From positions 96,001 through 160,000 of IMG/VR virus record IMGVR_UViG_3300020190_000007: DNA of 64,000 nucleotides. One strand, 5' to 3'. Position numbers and translations under genes: made by a program. This DNA comes from a virus. Below, piece after piece: positions 16,188 through 41,526 of this stretch. Every line of letters starts with the position of its first letter. Within the stretch, counting starts at the first letter, position 1. The notes beneath the pieces were generated by a model. That model was not told the origin of the DNA. It ran no database searches and saw only the letters and a program-made list of their open reading frames with translations.

Positions 16188-16628
16188 TTAATAATAATTA
16201 ACAACAACCCCACATTCAAGGAGGAGTTGGAGGGATTTCTTTTGAGATTCATCCCACTTCTCCTTATTTTTTGTGGTACATACCTCTTTACAGTAAACAG
16301 TTTTAATTCCACTATTTACTATACCTCTAGCACAGTCCATACATGGTAATCCCGACGTAAGATATATTGTGGAACCTTTTAATGGTGTTCCTACACGAGC
16401 GGCGTTATAAATTGCATTACGTTCCGCATGTTCAAACCAGAAGTATTTTTCAGGTCTTTCCTGACGTTCTAATTTAGAATCGTCCATTCCCCTTGGGAAA
16501 GAATTATAACCCGTAGAAAGTACCTCATTGTCACCCCCAACGATTACCGCACCTATCTGTGTGAATTGGTCTTTTGATTTAAGTTTTACTTGTTCCGCTA
16601 ATCCTAAAAAATATTCCGTCCAATTCAT
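16188..16628 (-). CDS. dCMP deaminase
   Basis: STGYN, HAERNA and PCMDC zinc motifs. Confidence 0.92.
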   Translation of the reverse strand: MNWTEYFLGLAEQVKLKSKDQFTQIGAVIVGGDNEVLSTGYNSFPRGMDDSKLERQERPEKYFWFEHAERNAIYNAARVGTPLKGSTIYLTSGLPCMDCARGIVNSGIKTVYCKEVCTTKNKEKWDESQKKSLQLLLECGVVVNYY

Positions 16629-16978
16629 ATTAATTTTTGGTTTGAAATAAAATGTACTCTATTATTGTAATATAATCTAAGATTTTCGGCAAGACCTTTT
16701 TCCATTAATTTACTCATCTCTCTACAATTGTCCGAATCACTAATATCAATACCGACTATGAATCTACCATCATATTGTTTTTGATAAGTAATTGGTCGAA
16801 TATATTTTCCTTGGTCTTCCATCTTAAGATATTTCACCATTTCATCTTTAGTCTGTTTACACTCAATATTCCTACTTTCTATCAAACCTTTTAATACGTC
16901 TAATCTTAATTTCTCATAATCAAAGGGTTCGTCGGACATAATTGCTTTTTGTATATTTTTTTTTGATATTTTACCCAT
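16625..16978 (-). CDS. Hypothetical protein
   Basis: ORF with TATATTTG on the minus strand at 16990-16983. Confidence 0.6.
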   Translation of the reverse strand: MGKISKKNIQKAIMSDEPFDYEKLRLDVLKGLIESRNIECKQTKDEMVKYLKMEDQGKYIRPITYQKQYDGRFIVGIDISDSDNCREMSKLMEKGLAENLRLYYNNRVHFISNQKLI

Positions 16979-17010: not shown

Positions 17011-17034
17011 AAAGGGGGACTAATGTCCCCCTTT
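17011..17034 (-). terminator. Intrinsic terminator after the major capsid gene
   Basis: AAAGGGGGAC-TAAT-GTCCCCCTTT hairpin; the A-run gives a minus-strand U-tract. Confidence 0.85.
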
Positions 17035-17054
17035 CTATTATGAGATAGTTATGA

Positions 17055-18818
17055 TTATCTCAAGGTGTCAAGACTAAATGTAGACAAACCACTTACGTTT
17101 ACCACACCAAAATAACGGTTGTTAACCATTTTCTTAGCGTATCTGGTCATAATACCTTTGATTGGTGTAAAGTTGAATGGATTGTACATTGTAGGTGTTA
17201 ATTGTAATGGAACGTATGGTGCGTAAATATAACCAGCGTCCAACAATGATTTACCTTTGTGACCGATAACAACCTTACCAGCTGGTAAGTATGGGTCACG
17301 GTACACTTGATAACGACCTGCTAAAGAACCGATTTTCTCGATACCCATGTTATATTGGTCTTGCTCAGGAGCCGCGTTTGAAACGTGGAAGTATTCCAAG
17401 TCGTCAAATACTGCAGATACCTCAGAAGATACAACAATCCAGTTAGCTCCACCTCTTAAGGTAGTTTTATGGATTTGAGCTGAGATTTGGTTAATTTTGG
17501 TAACCAATGTTTGGTTCCAGTCTTTTTGAGTGTAACCAGCGAATGATGAACCATCGTTACCGTATCTCCATTCGTTGTAGTCCCACTTAGATGTCCAAGC
17601 GGCACCTTTACGAATGTCACGAAGGATTTCACGGTCGATTTCTGCTGCGATTTGCTCAGACAATAAAGCTGTCAATTCAGCTTCAGCATCGATGTTGTGG
17701 AATGCACTTACGTCTTGTGCTAATTCAGGAGACCAGCTAGCTCTCAATTTTCTTTCAGTTACAGAAACTGTTACTGACTCAAGGTCGAAAGATACTTCAC
17801 CGATTTCTTCTTCGAATTCTAATGAATTGTATTCTCTCCAACTTACCTTAATGTCACTCGCCGCTAATGATGAACCAGCAACTGTGTAATCTGTAAAACC
17901 TGTTGTTACACCGTTGTACTTTTGTAAGTCGATAGATAAGTAAATAACTCCATCAGCGTCACAAACGTTTGTGAATTTACCTGTTCTACCACTGTCTTTA
18001 GAACCGTACTCTACAATGCCTTTACCGTATTTTTGAGTTACTACGCTGAAAGGAATATTAGCGGCTGCAGTAGCACCTAAGTGAGTATATAACGAACTAT
18101 CAAGACCTGATAAAGTGTAAACAGTTAATGATGCTAAGAACTCTTCAGTATCCATGACATGACCATTAGGGCCGGAAAGTTTACTAGCACCTTCGTAAGT
18201 TGTAAAACCTGAAATTTTAGCAATTACACTTGATACTGTGTTACCTGTAGCAATAGCCGCTTGAGTTGAAGCTACGCCGTTACTAAATGTAACAAATTCA
18301 ATTGTTGAGCCAGTAATTGTTGCAAAAGTACCTTTTGAGTAGTCAAACAAACCAGAATCAACTGAATCACTCGCTTCGTAGAAACGGTCATACAAGTTGT
18401 TACCAGTGTAACCAACGGCTGGGTCGGTATCGGTTGTGTTTGGGAAACCGAATGGTTGACGGTGTGCGTTTGCCGATGTTCTATCTTGAATTTTAGGTAC
18501 AAAGTAGAACAATTTACCGATAGGTAAGTTCATTGCTTGTACGGATACGATGTCGTTCGCTAACAATTTAGAGAAAACACGACGGATAATAGGGAATACT
18601 ACAGTTTCAAATGAACCTGAAGCATCGGCTACAGCCGCTTCGTTGATTAGGTATGAAGCTTGGTTTTCATACAATTGTGCGATGTTGTCTTTTTGGTGAC
18701 CGTTAAGACCCTCAAGGAATCCTAAGTCATCCCATTTTTTAATGGTATCTTCTTTGATAACACGGAGGTGTTTTAATCCAATGTTACCAACCATACCAGA
18801 TTCTAATAATGCTCCCAT
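17055..18818 (-). CDS. Major capsid protein (T4 gp23-like)
   Basis: VQAMNLPIG, RKLRASWSPELAQD, AELTALLSEQIAAEIDREI, YAPYVPL, GIMTRY. Confidence 0.97.
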   Translation of the reverse strand: MGALLESGMVGNIGLKHLRVIKEDTIKKWDDLGFLEGLNGHQKDNIAQLYENQASYLINEAAVADASGSFETVVFPIIRRVFSKLLANDIVSVQAMNLPIGKLFYFVPKIQDRTSANAHRQPFGFPNTTDTDPAVGYTGNNLYDRFYEASDSVDSGLFDYSKGTFATITGSTIEFVTFSNGVASTQAAIATGNTVSSVIAKISGFTTYEGASKLSGPNGHVMDTEEFLASLTVYTLSGLDSSLYTHLGATAAANIPFSVVTQKYGKGIVEYGSKDSGRTGKFTNVCDADGVIYLSIDLQKYNGVTTGFTDYTVAGSSLAASDIKVSWREYNSLEFEEEIGEVSFDLESVTVSVTERKLRASWSPELAQDVSAFHNIDAEAELTALLSEQIAAEIDREILRDIRKGAAWTSKWDYNEWRYGNDGSSFAGYTQKDWNQTLVTKINQISAQIHKTTLRGGANWIVVSSEVSAVFDDLEYFHVSNAAPEQDQYNMGIEKIGSLAGRYQVYRDPYLPAGKVVIGHKGKSLLDAGYIYAPYVPLQLTPTMYNPFNFTPIKGIMTRYAKKMVNNRYFGVVNVSGLSTFSLDTLR

Positions 18819-37123: not shown

Positions 37124-37585
37124 ATGAAAAAATTTAGAACATTGCACGGAACACTCATAACCGACGTTATAGGTTACATCAAAGATTATTTGGTGGATAA
37201 AAACGATATTGAAATATTGATTGGTTCGGATTCACAATCATTTAGTAATTCTAAAACAGTTTACGGGGTGGTTATTGCTCTTTACACAAAAGGTAAGGGT
37301 GCTCACGTATTGTGTACTAAAGACACAATACCATTTGAAAAAGATACGTCAAGTAGACTAATGACTGAAGTGTGGAAGGCGGTTGAAGTTGCTGAACACT
37401 TGAGAAACAATGGTTTACCAAAAGTCACTTGGATTGATATTGACCTTAATCCTGACCCAAAATACAAATCAAATAAGGTTTTAAGACAAGCCGTTGGTTT
37501 GGTTGAGGGTATGGGGTATAAAGTGAGATACAAACACGCGGGGGCTATGATGACCTACAGCGCGAATCATTTGGTGAGGATTTAA
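37124..37585 (+). CDS. YkuK-family RNase H-like protein
   Basis: IGSDSQ, RLMTEVWKAVEVA, DIDLN. Confidence 0.8.
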   Translation: MKKFRTLHGTLITDVIGYIKDYLVDKNDIEILIGSDSQSFSNSKTVYGVVIALYTKGKGAHVLCTKDTIPFEKDTSSRLMTEVWKAVEVAEHLRNNGLPKVTWIDIDLNPDPKYKSNKVLRQAVGLVEGMGYKVRYKHAGAMMTYSANHLVRI

Positions 37586-37615: not shown

Positions 37616-37646
37616 TTTGTTTTTACAAAAAGTTTATATATCTTTG
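37616..37646 (+). promoter_or_regulatory. Bacteroidota sigma70-type promoter for the TROVE-like/TerD operon
   Basis: TTTG-N19-TATCTTTG. Confidence 0.75.
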
Positions 37647-37682
37647 TACCATTACAATAAATTACAACATTAATACGACATT

Positions 37683-39755
37683 ATGACAACAAGGAATTTA
37701 GTTGCGTTTCAAAAAGGTTTGGTCTGTTCACCAAACGACGGTCAAGATAATAGAATCGCGGTAGCAACCGTTCAATCCCACTTAATGCAATGGGGTTACA
37801 TGTTAGACGAAGATGCTTTCTTCGCGTTGTCCAAATCAGAATTATCGTTTATTCAAAACTTCAATCATGAAGTATTGAATCATTTGAAAAATGTAATGGG
37901 TGGTAATCGTAATTACCAACCCCTATATAAGAATTTCCCACAAGAAGTGATGGTTATGTCCGACTTCGAATTATACATGAACGCAATCTTGCATTATTGG
38001 AGTAATGGTCAATGGGAACCATCAACCCACACTTACGAAAAAGAAATCAAGTTTGAAAAAATTAAATACAACTTGATTAAGTATGGTACCTCTGATAGAT
38101 TCTCAAAAATTTTCACTGACTTAGTGTCAATCAACACATCATTAACCCCCCAAGACCTTGAGATTGTTAAGTGGTTTGTATCAAGTGGTGAAACATTGAT
38201 TTTCCCTGACACAATTCCTTTCAAAGAGAATTTGTGTACACTTGCGGGAATGGGAATCGAGGGACTTCCAGTAAAGACTTCAACCGACGTGTTAAGAATA
38301 GCCGTTCATCTTTCAGGTGGAGACATTAGTTTACCTAAAGTTCCTGAAAAGGAAATTAGACTAAACAGATGGTCTACCGATAAAGGAGTAAATCCCGAAA
38401 GAGAAAAGTTTAAATTCAAGAAATTCACTCGTAAAGAGAGGAAGTACATCTTGAATTTACTTGAGAACACAAACTGTGACCCAAGAGAAATGGTTTTAAG
38501 AGACCAACGATGGGTTCGTTTAGGTGAAATCTTACACCCGGGTGAGTATAAAAACCAATTCCCTAAATCTTTTGATGCGTTCAACAAGATTAGAAACGAG
38601 AAAGTAAAATCTTGGTTCTCCCTTGTAGATGAGGGATTCAAAAAAAGTTTGGAGAATGGTTTGAGAGTATTGTCTCAAAGACCCGGTGAATTCTCTCGTC
38701 GATTAGATTGGTTGGTTCGTACATATCCACAAGATATTGAAACAATTATGAAATTATTCGGAGAAGCGGTAAAAGGTACATCAAACAAAGTATTGTTTGA
38801 GGTTTACACTCACTTTGAAGGTCGTACTGAACCTAAAACAAATAGGTCAGTTATGATTAAAGGAGCGAGAAAACGTACCGAATTACCATCACTACAAGCA
38901 ATCCCTAAAGAGATTGTGGAAACCATCCACTCTAAATTATTCGAAACTCTTAGAGATAAGTTTTCGGTAATGGATTCTTTAGGTAACTGTTGGATTGATG
39001 AGGAATTAAAAAAGATTCCTTTACCAACCAACATGAGAAGTATGAACTTCTCAACTAAACCTACCATCAGAGGTCAACGAGTTCCGCTCGATAACCCCGA
39101 TGCAAAAGTTATCAGACCATTTATTCATTGGATGGATAAACGTGGTTCTGAAGACTTGGATTTAAGTGTTACGTTTGTTGGTGAAAAAGTGTCAGAAGTA
39201 CTATCTTTCAGTAACTTGAGAGTTGGTAACTCTGTTCACTCGGGGGACGTGAGACATAGACAGGGTCCTTGTGCGGAGTACATCGACATCGATATTCAAG
39301 ATGGATTAAATCGTGGATTCAAGTACGCGGTTATTGACGTAAGAAACTTCAATGGCGGTAGTTTAAGTTCACTTGAAACATCCTTTGGTATCATGGAGAG
39401 AGAACATCCTGAATCAAACACGACATGGTTACCTGAGACAATTTCAAATTGTCAATCATTAGAATCTGAGTCGTCAAACACTTTGATTGCAATTATTGAC
39501 TTAGAAACCAAAGAGTACATCATGTTGGACATTGATTCAAGTGGTTTTGTAACCGCGAGGAGCGACTTCAATAACACCTTTAAAGTAATTCAACAATACG
39601 CTGAATTACCAAAAGTAAGTGTTTATGACCTTATTCTTCTACACGTAGAAGGTCGAGGAAAACAAGTTACCCTTGACGAGAATGTGGATACACATTTCAA
39701 GTACGAGGACTTCTGTTACTCTTATGAAGAGACAGGTAAATTGATGGGTGTCTAA
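37683..39755 (+). CDS. Helical TROVE/Ro-like protein with C-terminal TerD-like domain
   Basis: PLYKNFP, TSTDVLR, LHPGEY, RPGEFSRRLD, C-terminal DLDLS...HSGD...AEYIDID; recalls the Prok-RING_4 family architecture without the RING finger. Confidence 0.65.
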   Translation: MTTRNLVAFQKGLVCSPNDGQDNRIAVATVQSHLMQWGYMLDEDAFFALSKSELSFIQNFNHEVLNHLKNVMGGNRNYQPLYKNFPQEVMVMSDFELYMNAILHYWSNGQWEPSTHTYEKEIKFEKIKYNLIKYGTSDRFSKIFTDLVSINTSLTPQDLEIVKWFVSSGETLIFPDTIPFKENLCTLAGMGIEGLPVKTSTDVLRIAVHLSGGDISLPKVPEKEIRLNRWSTDKGVNPEREKFKFKKFTRKERKYILNLLENTNCDPREMVLRDQRWVRLGEILHPGEYKNQFPKSFDAFNKIRNEKVKSWFSLVDEGFKKSLENGLRVLSQRPGEFSRRLDWLVRTYPQDIETIMKLFGEAVKGTSNKVLFEVYTHFEGRTEPKTNRSVMIKGARKRTELPSLQAIPKEIVETIHSKLFETLRDKFSVMDSLGNCWIDEELKKIPLPTNMRSMNFSTKPTIRGQRVPLDNPDAKVIRPFIHWMDKRGSEDLDLSVTFVGEKVSEVLSFSNLRVGNSVHSGDVRHRQGPCAEYIDIDIQDGLNRGFKYAVIDVRNFNGGSLSSLETSFGIMEREHPESNTTWLPETISNCQSLESESSNTLIAIIDLETKEYIMLDIDSSGFVTARSDFNNTFKVIQQYAELPKVSVYDLILLHVEGRGKQVTLDENVDTHFKYEDFCYSYEETGKLMGV

Positions 39756-39766
39756 ACTCACCCATT

Positions 39767-39778
39767 AGTTCTTTGAAA
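39767..39778 (+). promoter_or_regulatory. boxA-like element
   Basis: AGTTCTTTGAAA just before the RNA array. Confidence 0.55.
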
Positions 39779-39783
39779 TATTA

Positions 39784-40202
39784 TATGTGGCTATGTGAGC
39801 CATTGAGAGGATAGTCAACTGACCATCACATCAAACCACGGAGTGGTTCTGTTTTGGTCCTTAGCGGTGACAAAAGTATCAATGCAAACGTCTTACTTCT
39901 AACAAACAACTATCAGATACGAAAACCAGACACACAATTTCCACATAACTTCTTAGACGGCTATGTATTGGGTTACTTCTGCTAGGGGACTAATGTCCCC
40001 CCTTCTATAACAATTATATGTTACATTACCCGTACTTTTTCCGTCAATCATATTGAGTGGCTATCTATCAACTTACTTCTAAATTTTAAGCAAAAAATCA
40101 AAAATTAGTTGTAGTCTTTCCACTTTTAAAACACACATGGATATGTGTTCAGTTATTTCTACTTTGACCGATAATCAAAACAATTATTGACACAGTTTCC
40201 AT
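39784..40202 (+). ncRNA. Array of four structured RNAs (39784-39947, 39956-40045, 40056-40124, 40137-40202)
   Basis: Each unit has GG(C/A)TAT...TTA(C/T)TTCT...TTTCC with three stems that show compensatory changes between units. Confidence 0.8.
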
Positions 40203-40243
40203 TTTTTAAAAACAACAAAATAAATAACATAAAAACAACAATT

Positions 40244-40690
40244 ATGGCAACAAAAACAACTGACCAGAAAGTAAAAGAACTATTCGATTTAGTTCAAAGT
40301 AAAAAATTAGCAATTGAAAAAGCTGAAAGACCTTGTTGGAAAACCAGCGGTAACTTTGGTTATTCAGCGAATTCCGCACATGACAGGACATCAATTCCAA
40401 CTATCACAGATGTACGTAAAATCGTAGAGATGTACGCATTTCTGATGGAAAGAAAAGATAAATCCGAAACCGCAGCCAAAGAACTTGGCGTAAACTACAA
40501 ATTCACATGGTTAGGATTTACTGTCGATGAATGGAAAGATGATTTTCAAACAAGAGTAAATCAAATTTTAATTCAAGAAAAACGTAAAGAACTTTCTGAA
40601 ATTGAATCTCGTTTGAATTCATTAATTTCACCCGAGATAAGAGTACAAATGGAATTGGAAGCAATCACGGAGTTACTTAACGAAAAGTAA
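40244..40690 (+). CDS. Hypothetical coiled-coil protein (probable start 40244)
   Basis: A-rich leader before ATG; the longer ORF call overlaps RNA unit 4. Confidence 0.7.
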   Translation: MATKTTDQKVKELFDLVQSKKLAIEKAERPCWKTSGNFGYSANSAHDRTSIPTITDVRKIVEMYAFLMERKDKSETAAKELGVNYKFTWLGFTVDEWKDDFQTRVNQILIQEKRKELSEIESRLNSLISPEIRVQMELEAITELLNEK

Positions 40691-40747
40691 TTTCTTGGTT
40701 TTTTAAACCAAGTGGTGGAGTCGAACCGAGAAACCGGTCGTCCTAAA

Positions 40748-40778
40748 AAGGGGTTGGGTGACTAACCCCTTCTTTTTT
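40748..40778 (+). terminator. Intrinsic terminator
   Basis: AAGGGGTTGG-GTGA-CTAACCCCTT followed by a T-run. Confidence 0.8.
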
Positions 40779-40806
40779 AAACATATTTTTTGATATATTT
40801 ACAAAT

Positions 40807-41526
40807 ATGAGAATAGTATGTATTTCTGACACCCACTCTTTACACAATGGTATGTTGTATAACATACCACAGGGAGATATTTTGATACACTCAGGAGATT
40901 GCACAAATGTCGGACGACAAAATGATGTTCGTGATTTTATTAATTGGTTTCAAAATATACAAGGATTTACCCATAAAATTTTCATTGCAGGTAACCACGA
41001 TTTTGCGTTTCAAAGAAAACCAACATGGTTAAATCTTTACATAGACCCATCAATTCTCACAGAAAATAATGTTACTTATTTGGAAGATGGTGAGTTGGAA
41101 ATTATTAGTTCAGAATTCTCAAGACCAATAAAAATTTATGGTTCTCCATGGCAACCTGAATTTTTTGATTGGGCATTTAATTTACCAAGAAACGGTGAGG
41201 TGTTAAAAGAAAAATGGGACTCAATCCCAAATAATACCGATATCTTAATAACACATGGTCCACCACATGGAATTAGAGATTTTACACCCAATAATTTACA
41301 GGTCGGATGTGAACTTTTAAGAGAGCGTGTTGAAGTTTTAAAACCACTTTTACATGTTTTTGGTCACATACATGGTGCATATGGTGTTGCAATGATTGGC
41401 GATACAGTATTTGCTAACGCATCAACTTGTACAGAAAGGTATCGACCAATAAATAAACCATTAGTTTTTGATTTAATCGAAAATGATGGTATATTTACAA
41501 TAAATTATATAGACGAAGAAAATTAA
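40807..41526 (+). CDS. Calcineurin-like metallophosphoesterase
   Basis: ISDTH, HSGD, AGNHD, THGPP, FGHIH. Confidence 0.92.
   Translation: MRIVCISDTHSLHNGMLYNIPQGDILIHSGDCTNVGRQNDVRDFINWFQNIQGFTHKIFIAGNHDFAFQRKPTWLNLYIDPSILTENNVTYLEDGELEIISSEFSRPIKIYGSPWQPEFFDWAFNLPRNGEVLKEKWDSIPNNTDILITHGPPHGIRDFTPNNLQVGCELLRERVEVLKPLLHVFGHIHGAYGVAMIGDTVFANASTCTERYRPINKPLVFDLIENDGIFTINYIDEEN

What the first reader, a model, noticed from the sequence alone, without database searches (positions are those of the whole stretch)
37616..40778. TROVE-like/TerD protein followed by an array of four covarying Y-RNA-like RNAs
Seen: right after the 690-aa gene and a boxA-like element come four units with one fold but different sequence. 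Outer stems are TATGTGG/CCACATA, GACGG/CCGTC, AGTGG/CCACT and ATGG/CCAT. Each is followed by an internal loop (C/A)TAT opposite nnTTT, a 3-bp stem (GTG/CAC, GTA/TAC, CTA/TAG, GTG/CAC), a bulge, an upper stem (GTCT/AGAC, GGGT/ACCC, CAACT/AGTTG, TCAGT/ATTGA), a conserved unpaired TA(C/T)TTCT and a unique loop. Known: Ro60/TROVE proteins bind the bulged terminal stem of Y RNAs encoded beside them. Inference: a phage ribonucleoprotein with a constant protein-binding scaffold and exchangeable loop payloads, probably co-transcribed with the 40244 ORF from a host-type promoter.
Basis: partly seen in the sequence, partly recalled or inferred. Interest (0 to 1): 0.9.

Follow-up and report, generated by a model that had tools for sequence, protein, structure and literature searches.

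The report
Phage Ro-like protein with partner RNAs
A large lake phage encodes an unstudied 690-residue protein followed by four small folded RNAs that share one conserved "handle"; the same gene-RNA pair sits together in distant phages and in bacteria of many phyla, so it is probably an undescribed RNA-protein particle built on the plan of Ro60 with its Y RNAs.

Summary
Window 39784-40202 (+) holds four RNA units with one fold: a P1 stem ending GG/CC, an internal loop (C/A)UAU opposite NNUUU, a helix P2, an unpaired UA(C/U)UUCU, and a variable loop.

A covariance model finds this motif only on the gene's strand, beside homologues of the 690-aa protein. It is present in the IMG/VR relatives that keep DNA 3' of the gene, in 77 of 80 bacterial loci from about ten phyla, and in four deposited phage records, three from cultured phages (XacN1, RpAliso, Weasels2). 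In four of five complete bacterial genomes the strong matches lie only beside that gene; the fifth has none. On 143 units, 97% of cells pair, and the covariation score is 0.93 against 0.18 in shuffles.

The protein is a helical repeat domain plus a TerD domain (Z 14). It has no Pfam family and no sequence homology to TROVE (hhalign probability 6%). Ro60 structures are nonetheless its nearest long structural matches (Z 5.5-6.4).

Some related units carry a tRNA T-arm, a YrlA-like permuted tRNA mimic or a whole tRNA.

Best reading: a Ro60/Y-RNA-like particle that is a member of neither family. Binding and function are not shown. I found it in neither Rfam 15 nor the searched literature. This scan has already noted the same system on other DNA.

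The parts
37616..37646 (+). Promoter-like site of Bacteroidota type (TTTG, 19 nt, TAtcTTTG), 37 nt before the start codon
   Evidence: Read from the sequence. The pattern is not enriched in the window, so this is position-based inference only. Relatives L004, L005 and L007 carry a similar site between the gene and the array.
37683..39755 (+). 690-aa protein: N-terminal helical-repeat domain (about residues 1-450) plus a C-terminal TerD-fold beta-sandwich (about 473-636) and a short helical tail
   Evidence: ORF. No Pfam family; phrog_33734 of unknown function. 2410 clusters of relatives at 50% identity. AlphaFold2 model with pLDDT 93.4. TerD match: Foldseek probability 1.0 and VIA Z 14.2, rmsd 2.5, 150 aa. 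Ro60 structures: Z 5.5-6.4 over 244-265 aa.
39768..39778 (+). boxA-like GTTCTTTGAAA between the stop codon and unit 1
   Evidence: Present in the window and in L001, L002, L003, L006, L009 and L010. Absent in L011-L015. Function not tested.
39784..39947 (+). RNA unit 1 (164 nt): the scaffold with a roughly 90-nt structured insert at the 5' bulge of P2
   Evidence: Descriptor match. The core scores only 18 bits with model R1 because of the insert. In 10 relatives the insert folds as a long hairpin, and 9 pairs show compensatory changes.
39956..40045 (+). RNA unit 2 (90 nt): the scaffold with an apical loop that has gained a GGGGAC/GUCCCC hairpin
   Evidence: R1 53.2 bits and R2 47.4 bits. Loop segment 39985-40008 matches 23 of 24 bases of the hairpin at 17015-17038. 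Relatives lack this insert.
40055..40125 (+). RNA unit 3 (71 nt)
   Evidence: R1 69.4 bits, E 6.5e-13; R2 63.4 bits.
40137..40202 (+). RNA unit 4 (66 nt), with AUAU in place of CUAU and UAUUUCU in place of UACUUCU
   Evidence: R1 56.4 bits; R2 50.1 bits.
40244..40690 (+). 148-aa protein of unknown function (phrog_2574), always directly behind the RNA array in the phage lineage
   Evidence: PHROG hit at 1.7e-12. tblastn finds it after the array in L001-L019 and L024 at 55-95% identity, and in none of the other bacterial loci.
40748..40778 (+). Intrinsic-terminator-like hairpin with a U tract; probable 3' end of the gene-array-ORF148 transcript
   Evidence: 10-bp stem followed by CTTTTTT.

Best explanation
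The 690-aa protein and the four RNAs behind it most likely form a ribonucleoprotein. The RNAs are probably transcribed with the gene and then cut out.

Each RNA has a constant 'handle'. It consists of a P1 stem closed by GG/CC, the internal loop CUAU opposite NNUUU, a helix P2, and the single-stranded U(A/C)CUUCUA. I infer that the protein recognises this handle.

Each RNA also has a variable part, placed either in the apical loop or at the 5' bulge of P2. In relatives this part can be a tRNA T-arm, a permuted tRNA mimic like that of YrlA, or a complete tRNA. I infer that the variable part brings the protein to other RNA-handling factors or RNAs, as Y RNAs do for Ro60.

In phages the module sits inside tRNA and tmRNA gene clusters. 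Its likely field of action is therefore surveillance, repair or protection of tRNA-like stable RNAs during infection.

Shown here: the conserved fold, its covariation, and its almost exclusive linkage to this protein family.

Inferred: binding, processing and function.
For: 1. Structure. On 26 short units, 95% of cells pair and 12 of 15 pairs show compensatory changes. The upper stem was not used to pick the units. On 143 units from phages and bacteria, 97% of cells pair, and the covariation score is 0.93 against 0.18 in shuffles and 0.09-0.17 when partners are slid.

2. Linkage.
- All 90 R1 matches in the window and 20 viral loci are on the gene's strand and directly 3' of the gene.
- R2 gives 133 matches in 80 bacterial loci, 132 of them on the gene's strand. 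77 of the 80 loci have at least one unit.
- In four complete genomes of 5-9 Mb the strong matches lie only beside the gene; a fifth genome has none.
- The pair persists at 23-31% protein identity in Xanthomonas phage XacN1, Ruegeria phage RpAliso, Rhodococcus phage Weasels2 and a faecal phage scaffold.
- Other neighbouring genes are not conserved in bacteria.

3. The handle changes with the protein. Protein relatives at 39% identity or more have UUACUUCU; those near 30% have UUCCUUCU.

4. Modular payloads.
- T-arm-like GGUUCGAAUCC in several phage units.
- L035 5573-5679 matches Rfam YrlA across its T, acceptor-like and D arms, but not its Ro-binding stem. The score is 29.6 bits, below the cut-off of 69.
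- A tRNA-Met lies inside a unit in L024.

5. Protein. The model is confident. The three Ro60 structures are the only long alignments to the helical domain, at ranks 2, 10 and 13 of 48,161 chains. The first hit outside the family in BFVD is a TROVE protein, with probability 0.94 and E 0.053.

6. Context. In phages the gene lies among tRNA genes, a tmRNA gene and CCA-adding enzyme genes.
Against: - No experiment or read data show that the RNAs exist as discrete species or bind the protein. The tools for sequencing runs were closed.
- The protein shows no sequence homology to TROVE, and the fold match to Ro60 is below the level that excludes a generic helical-repeat likeness (Z below 8; Foldseek against PDB found nothing for the helical domain).
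- In most bacteria the units lie a median of 53 nt before the start codon, and only 5 of 53 have a terminator in between. That is also what an autoregulatory leader would look like.
- The four window units carry no recognisable tRNA-like module.
- One complete genome (Bacillus toyonensis) has the protein but no detectable unit.
Confidence: 0.7

Rival explanations
1. The units are cis-acting operators in the mRNA of the protein. The protein, or a ligand, binds them to control its own translation or stability, and there is no separate RNA product.
For: - In 52 of 80 bacterial loci the units lie only upstream, at a median of 53 nt from the start, sometimes about 1-12 nt from it. Terminator-like hairpins between unit and gene occur in only 5 of 53.
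- In Priestia megaterium L085 a sigma-A-type promoter would start transcription at the first base of the unit, and the gene follows 88 nt later.
Against: - In all loci of the phage lineage, and in about ten bacterial loci, the units lie 3' of the gene. One lies on the opposite strand (L099).
- Arrays of up to 6-8 sequence-divergent copies are not what an operator needs.
- Neither are payloads such as a whole tRNA, a YrlA-like tRNA mimic or a 90-nt covarying insert.
- Operators usually mimic another cellular target, but no other copy exists in the complete genomes.
Confidence: 0.12
2. The phage array is a decoy or antidote. The RNAs hold the neighbouring protein, or a host RNA-targeting defence enzyme, inactive. 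This would resemble type III toxin-antitoxin RNA repeats or anti-defence RNAs.
For: - A tandem RNA array lies beside a single protein gene on one strand.
- Some units display tRNA pieces, which are the usual targets of anticodon nucleases.
- The next gene but one (40807-41526) matches a candidate defence-system phosphoesterase, PADLOC PDC-S10, at 1.6e-81.
Against: - The units are not near-identical repeats; they covary and differ in sequence.
- The protein matches no model of a PADLOC defence system, and no nuclease fold was seen.
- Most bacterial loci have one or two units and no defence-island neighbours.
Confidence: 0.08
3. The scaffold is a processing or stabilising cassette for stable RNAs, read by host RNases or by the transcription machinery. 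Its nearness to the protein gene would reflect shared expression only.
For: - It lies within clusters of stable-RNA genes (tRNA, tmRNA) in phages.
- A tRNA is embedded in one unit.
- Three tRNA-shaped RNAs carry part of the motif.
Against: A general processing signal should flank other stable RNAs. In complete genomes the motif occurs only beside this one protein family. It follows that family through at least ten phyla while all other neighbours change.
Confidence: 0.05

Closest known systems
Ro60 (Rsr) with bacterial and phage Y RNAs, especially YrlA/YrlB (Rfam RF02553; Chen et al. 2014, PMC4201824; Thermus phage phiLo Ro60, PMC12135203)
   Same: - One RNA-binding protein gene has one to several small RNA genes within a few hundred bases on the same strand, apparently co-transcribed.
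- Each RNA is closed by a stem made of its 5' and 3' ends that carries the conserved, presumed protein-binding, motif.
- The far end is variable and in some members is a tRNA mimic. One bacterial unit matches the YrlA T/acceptor/D module.
- The helical domain's only long structural matches are Ro60 proteins.
- Phage copies sit among tRNA and RNA-repair-type genes.
   Different: - There is no sequence homology to TROVE.
- The C-terminal domain is a TerD beta-sandwich, not the vWA domain of Ro60.
- The handle is GGCUAU...U(A/C)CUUCUA...UUUCC. It is neither the GNCGAAN0-1G motif nor the GGUCCGA bulged helix of Y RNAs.
- No Rfam Y-RNA model matches the window.
- Canonical TROVE proteins coexist with this family in two genomes, so the family does not simply replace Ro60.
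- Arrays of up to eight units are larger than known Y-RNA sets.
TerD family proteins (Pfam PF02342; structures 2QZ7, 2KXT, 3IBZ)
   Same: Residues 473-636 adopt the TerD beta-sandwich (Z 14.2 and 12.8; Foldseek probability 1.0).
   Different: - Classic TerD proteins are about 190-aa single-domain, calcium-binding proteins of tellurite-resistance operons with no known RNA partner.
- Here the domain is fused behind a 450-aa helical domain.
- The Pfam model does not match the window protein, and it matches only 1 of 61 relatives at E 0.002.
NCBIfam NF041916, MXAN_6230/SCO0854 family RING domain-containing protein
   Same: It is the only curated model that matches: 236.7 bits over residues 307-671. 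The C-terminal two thirds are homologous.
   Different: The score is far below the 600-bit cut-off, and the N-terminal RING part of the 842-position model is not matched. I found no paper on that family.
Type III toxin-antitoxin RNA arrays (ToxI/ToxN type; named from my own knowledge)
   Same: A tandem array of small structured RNAs lies next to, and on the strand of, the gene of the protein they are thought to bind.
   Different: Those repeats are near-identical in sequence and the protein is an endoribonuclease. Here the units diverge with compensatory changes, and no nuclease fold is present.

Membership tests
Ro60 / TROVE (Pfam PF05731) | Sequence match to the TROVE model, or profile-level homology to TROVE proteins | tested here: not met
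   The window protein and 60 relatives have no PF05731 hit. hhalign of the family alignment A1 against a 23-member TROVE alignment A6 gives probability 5.8%.
Ro60 / TROVE (Pfam PF05731) | Ring-shaped HEAT-repeat fold | tested here: inconclusive
   VIA-align on the N-terminal model gives phiLo Ro60 Z 6.4 (244 aa, rmsd 4.9), Xenopus Ro60 Z 5.6 (265 aa) and D. radiodurans Rsr Z 5.5 (259 aa). These are the only long alignments, but all are below Z 8. A BFVD TROVE protein scores E 0.053 with probability 0.94. Foldseek against PDB found nothing. I could not inspect the model coordinates for ring closure.
Ro60 / TROVE (Pfam PF05731) | C-terminal von Willebrand factor A domain | tested here: not met
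   The C-terminal domain is a TerD beta-sandwich.
Y RNA / YrlA (Rfam RF00019, RF02553) | Score at or above the Rfam gathering cut-off | tested here: not met
   No Y-RNA match in window 39000-41500 even at E up to 10. One bacterial relative (L035) reaches 29.6 bits against a cut-off of 69, through its tRNA-like module only.
Y RNA / YrlA (Rfam RF00019, RF02553) | Ro-binding motif GNCGAAN0-1G (bacteria) or GGUCCGA bulged helix near the 5' end (PMC4201824) | tested here: not met
   The units begin with P1 followed by GG(C/A)UAU. Reading 39784-40202 shows no GNCGAA.
Y RNA / YrlA (Rfam RF00019, RF02553) | Stem formed by the 5' and 3' ends plus a variable distal module; genes within 4 kb of the protein gene on the same strand | tested here: met
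Y RNA / YrlA (Rfam RF00019, RF02553) | tRNA-like T-arm and D-arm module | tested here: not met
   None of the four window units has a T-loop-like motif. It is present in some related units: L003, L004, L006, L011, L012, L018, L035 and L047.
TerD (Pfam PF02342) | TerD beta-sandwich fold | tested here: met
   2QZ7_B Z 14.2, rmsd 2.5, 150 of 169 residues; 2KXT Z 12.8; Foldseek probability 1.0.
TerD (Pfam PF02342) | Match to the Pfam model above its cut-off | tested here: not met
   No hit for the window protein. One of 61 relatives matches at E 0.002.
NCBIfam NF041916 (RING_SCO0854) | Whole-protein score of 600 bits or more, including the N-terminal RING domain | tested here: not met
   236.7 bits; only model positions 385-766 are matched.
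Type III toxin-antitoxin RNA array | Near-identical tandem repeats beside an endoribonuclease toxin gene | tested here: not met
   The units share only the handle (mean column identity 54%). There is no nuclease fold and no defence-family hit.
Cis-regulatory 5' leader or riboswitch | Placed between the promoter and the start codon of the regulated gene | tested here: not met
   In the window and in all phage relatives the array lies 3' of the gene. The feature is met in most bacterial loci.

The most novel reading that the evidence does not exclude
This is an independent and widespread class of modular RNA-protein particle. It would not be a diverged Ro60. A helical+TerD protein holds a universal RNA handle, and the RNAs act as exchangeable display cassettes. 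Jumbo phages would have expanded them into arrays that present tRNA parts, whole tRNAs or other RNA pieces. These could shield, repair or decoy stable RNAs against host RNA-targeting defences. The invariant pyrimidine strand U(A/C)CUUCUA would be the element read by the protein or by a shared cellular partner.
Probability: 0.2. Interest if true: 0.92.

Novelty: new variant of a known kind. Interest (0 to 1): 0.85.

Why it matters
If the pair binds as inferred, this is a second RNA-protein particle of the Ro60/Y-RNA type, so far unnamed.

- **Range.** The protein family holds about 2400 clusters at 50% identity. At least 311 species-representative bacterial genomes encode a relative.
- **RNA partner.** It covaries strongly yet is absent from Rfam 15.
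- **What it would add.** It would give a function to a large family of 'hypothetical' TerD-fusion proteins. It would add a new structured RNA class with an unusually clear modular design. It would also offer a lead on how jumbo phages manage tRNA-like RNAs.
- **Testability.** Tractable systems exist: Priestia megaterium, Xanthomonas phage XacN1, Ruegeria phage RpAliso and Rhodococcus phage Weasels2.

Tried and rejected
- **Rfam.** An E-value scan of the window region and of seven related loci, plus gathering-threshold scans of twelve bacterial loci, found no family at the units apart from the sub-threshold YrlA hit in L035.
- **DNA similarity.** blastn of the region against 50,697 phage records found nothing.
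- **Protein sequence searches.** PDB searches with the single protein and with a profile found nothing useful. Pfam found nothing for the 690-aa protein.
- **Profile comparison with TROVE.** No homology.
- **Foldseek against PDB, helical domain alone.** No significant match.
- **PADLOC.** No defence family for the protein.
- **Bacterial gene neighbourhood.** Not conserved: L,D-transpeptidase, GNAT, permease, WD40 and others.
- **Terminator between upstream units and the gene in bacteria.** Found in only 5 of 53 loci, so a transcription-attenuation model was dropped.
- **Bacteroidota promoter pattern.** Not enriched.
- **Two weak model matches about 100 kb from the gene in genome G002.** No paralogue lies beside them, so I treat them as chance.
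- **Literature.** Searches for SCO0854/MXAN_6230, TerD with TROVE, TerD with ribonucleoprotein, the motif letters, and recent YrlA work found no description. A 2026 preprint on bacterial tRNA mimics, judged from its abstract and outline only, treats families with other names.
- **16S rRNA likeness.** I noticed that UCCUUCUA resembles the 3' tail of 16S rRNA. An 8-of-11 match between two pyrimidine runs is expected by chance, so I did not pursue it.
Full report
**What is in the window**

ORF 37683-39755 (+) encodes a 690-aa protein. The next 490 bases hold no credible ORF. An unguided RNA fold of 39756-40243 gives four separate hairpins.

All the stems, loops and the unpaired UA(C/U)UUCU are as described. 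A plain descriptor was used: GG-N-TAT, three bases, their complement, NN-TTTCC, and an outer stem of at least 4 bp. It finds 5 matches on the + strand (one is a nested pairing) and none on the - strand. Shuffles give 0.08 matches.

ORF 40244-40690 follows, and then a strong terminator-like hairpin at 40748-40778. The only other terminator-like site on the + strand is a weak one inside unit 1.

The record is an IMG/VR virus contig of 170,860 bases, estimated 55% complete, so the phage is probably a jumbo phage of about 300 kb. Relatives lie on contigs of up to 310 kb.

**The RNA fold is conserved and covaries**

Twenty IMG/VR loci encode the protein at 67-96% identity. I aligned twenty-six short units from them (A2). 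On that alignment 95% of cells pair and 12 of 15 pairs carry compensatory changes. The covariation score is 0.62 against 0.19 in shuffles and at most 0.13 when partners are slid. The descriptor had selected for P1 and the 3-bp stem but not for the upper stem, and the upper stem covaries as well.

The covariance model R1 gave 90 matches in the window plus the 20 loci. Every match is on the + strand and directly 3' of the protein gene, and the loci that keep the DNA 3' of the gene hold several units each.

A second model, R2, was trained on phage and bacterial units. It gave an alignment of 143 units with 97% of cells paired and 673 compensatory cells against 191 in shuffles. The covariation score is 0.93 against 0.18. 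That alignment is fitted to the model, so these numbers lean towards the structure. The slid controls (0.09-0.17) and the first, MAFFT-made alignment guard against that bias.

**The RNA follows the protein family, not the phage**

The protein family is large: 2410 clusters at 50% identity. A pattern scan of one genome per GTDB species found 311 bacterial loci, and 80 were fetched. They come from Bacillus, Priestia, Paenibacillus, Planctomycetota, Armatimonadota, Acidobacteriota, Verrucomicrobiota, Obscuribacterales, Proteobacteria, Bacteroidota and others. Most are about 30% identical to the window protein.

R2 finds 133 units there, 132 of them on the gene's strand, in 77 of the 80 loci. Of the three loci without a unit, one has no upstream DNA.

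I scanned five complete genomes of 5-9 Mb. In four of them the strong matches all lie beside the gene. Bacillus toyonensis has none. The only matches elsewhere are two weak ones in a single genome.

Other neighbouring genes are not conserved.

Deposited phage records with 23-31% identical proteins also carry units next to the gene. XacN1 has three and RpAliso one before the gene. Weasels2 has three after it. An unverified faecal phage scaffold has four before it.

In bacteria the units are usually one or two, at a median of 53 nt upstream, and rarely with a terminator in between. In P. megaterium a sigma-A-type promoter would start the transcript at the first base of the unit. About ten bacterial loci and all phage relatives have the units 3' of the gene.

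The handle tracks the protein subfamily. It reads UUACUUCU where the protein is at least 39% identical to the window's, and UUCCUUCU in the 30% group.

**The variable parts are modules**

There are two insertion sites.

- *The 5' bulge of P2.* Window unit 1 carries a roughly 90-nt insert there. Across ten relatives it folds as a long hairpin with nine compensated pairs.
- *The apical loop.* In relatives it holds a T-arm-like GGUUCGAAUCC hairpin (L003, L004, L006, L011, L012, L018). In L024 it holds a complete tRNA-Met. In a Clostridia genome (L035) it holds a permuted tRNA mimic. That mimic matches Rfam YrlA along its T, acceptor-like and D arms but not its Ro-binding stem. It scores 29.6 bits, below the cut-off of 69.

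The four window units themselves have no recognisable tRNA piece. The loop of unit 2 has gained a hairpin that matches 23 of 24 bases of the hairpin at 17015-17038. That hairpin reads as a terminator on the minus strand, between two minus-strand ORFs. So the loop tolerates insertions.

**The protein**

No Pfam family matches it. It belongs to phrog_33734, of unknown function. The only curated hit is NCBIfam NF041916, far below its cut-off.

The AlphaFold2 model is confident, with pLDDT 93.4. Residues 473-636 are a TerD beta-sandwich (Z 14.2).

For the helical domain modelled alone (pLDDT 91.3), Foldseek against PDB finds nothing. The exhaustive aligner places the three Ro60 structures at ranks 2, 10 and 13 of 48,161 chains. 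They align over 244-265 residues, while all other hits cover about 90-110 residues of one repeat stretch. The Z scores (5.5-6.4) are below the level at which helical repeats can be trusted. In BFVD the first hit outside the family is a phage TROVE protein (E 0.053).

At the sequence level there is no relation. hhalign of the family against a TROVE alignment gives 5.8% probability. Canonical TROVE proteins coexist with this family in two genomes, and none is found in the 170,860-base record that holds this window.

I therefore call the protein Ro60-like in plan and possibly in shape, but not a TROVE family member.

**Context in phages**

The order is conserved: tRNA genes, an RNase H-like protein (PF04308), the 690-aa gene, the RNA array, the 148-aa ORF, a metallophosphoesterase, and tmRNA. 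RpAliso has a tRNA nucleotidyltransferase next to the gene, and XacN1 has a nucleotidyltransferase nearby. This points to tRNA-like stable RNAs as the field of action, but it shows no mechanism.

**Reading and rivals**

The most economical explanation is a dedicated particle. The protein binds the handle and the RNA's variable module provides specificity, as in Ro60 with Y RNAs (PMC4201824).

The main rival is an autoregulatory leader. It fits the bacterial upstream position. It does not fit the 3' arrays, the payloads, or the lack of any other target copy in the genomes.

Decoy or antidote readings and a generic processing signal are less likely, for the reasons given in their entries.

Nothing here shows binding, processing or function.

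**Novelty**

Rfam 15 has no model for the RNA, Pfam has none for the helical domain, and seven literature searches found no description. Several follow-up reports of this same scan, on other genomes, reached a similar reading. I used them as leads only, and the tests above were run here independently.

Noticed in passing
L006:5705-5827, L018:6049-6185, L024:7180-7301: At the end of three arrays lies a tRNA-shaped RNA of 120-140 nt. It has an acceptor stem, D-arm and T-arm. In place of the anticodon arm it has a stretch with UUUC..GGCUAU..UUACUUCUA. That looks like a circularly permuted handle, with P1 capped by a loop. Rfam calls these tRNA at 41-61 bits.
   Followed up: partly
window 39985-40008 and 17015-17038: The loop of unit 2 contains a 24-nt hairpin segment that matches 23 of 24 bases of the hairpin between two minus-strand ORFs (16625-16978 and 17055-18818). 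On the minus strand that hairpin is a classic terminator. Relatives of unit 2 lack the insert.
   Followed up: partly
window 40807-41526: The calcineurin-like metallophosphoesterase two genes after the array matches PADLOC candidate defence family PDC-S10 at 1.6e-81. It is syntenic in most of the related phage loci.
   Followed up: no
window 37124-37585: An RNase H-like protein (PF04308, 1.1e-16) lies upstream of the 690-aa gene, directly in the window and further upstream in some relatives. It is present in the closer phage relatives (L001-L004, L006, L009-L011).
   Followed up: no
L003:2813-2885, L005:702-774, L006:2834-2908, L010:2312-2386, L015:2572-2643, L017:2572-2643: Relatives carry a tRNA with anticodon CUA, which ARAGORN labels 'Pyl', upstream of the gene, in several of them within about 700 nt of its start. 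This suggests amber suppression or TAG recoding in this phage group. The window's own four tRNAs do not include it.
   Followed up: no
L004:7742-7956: A group I intron match (65.8 bits) lies in the tmRNA region downstream of the module in one relative.
   Followed up: no
L119 (XacN1 ORF396), L120 (RpAliso gp9), L121 (Weasels2 gp266): These cultured phages carry the protein annotated as 'hypothetical'. Unannotated gaps beside it hold the RNA units. In RpAliso a CCA-adding enzyme gene follows directly. They are ready experimental systems.
   Followed up: partly
L095 (Bacillus toyonensis, genome G004): A complete genome encodes the protein but has no detectable unit anywhere. The RNA is either too diverged to detect or has been lost.
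   Followed up: partly
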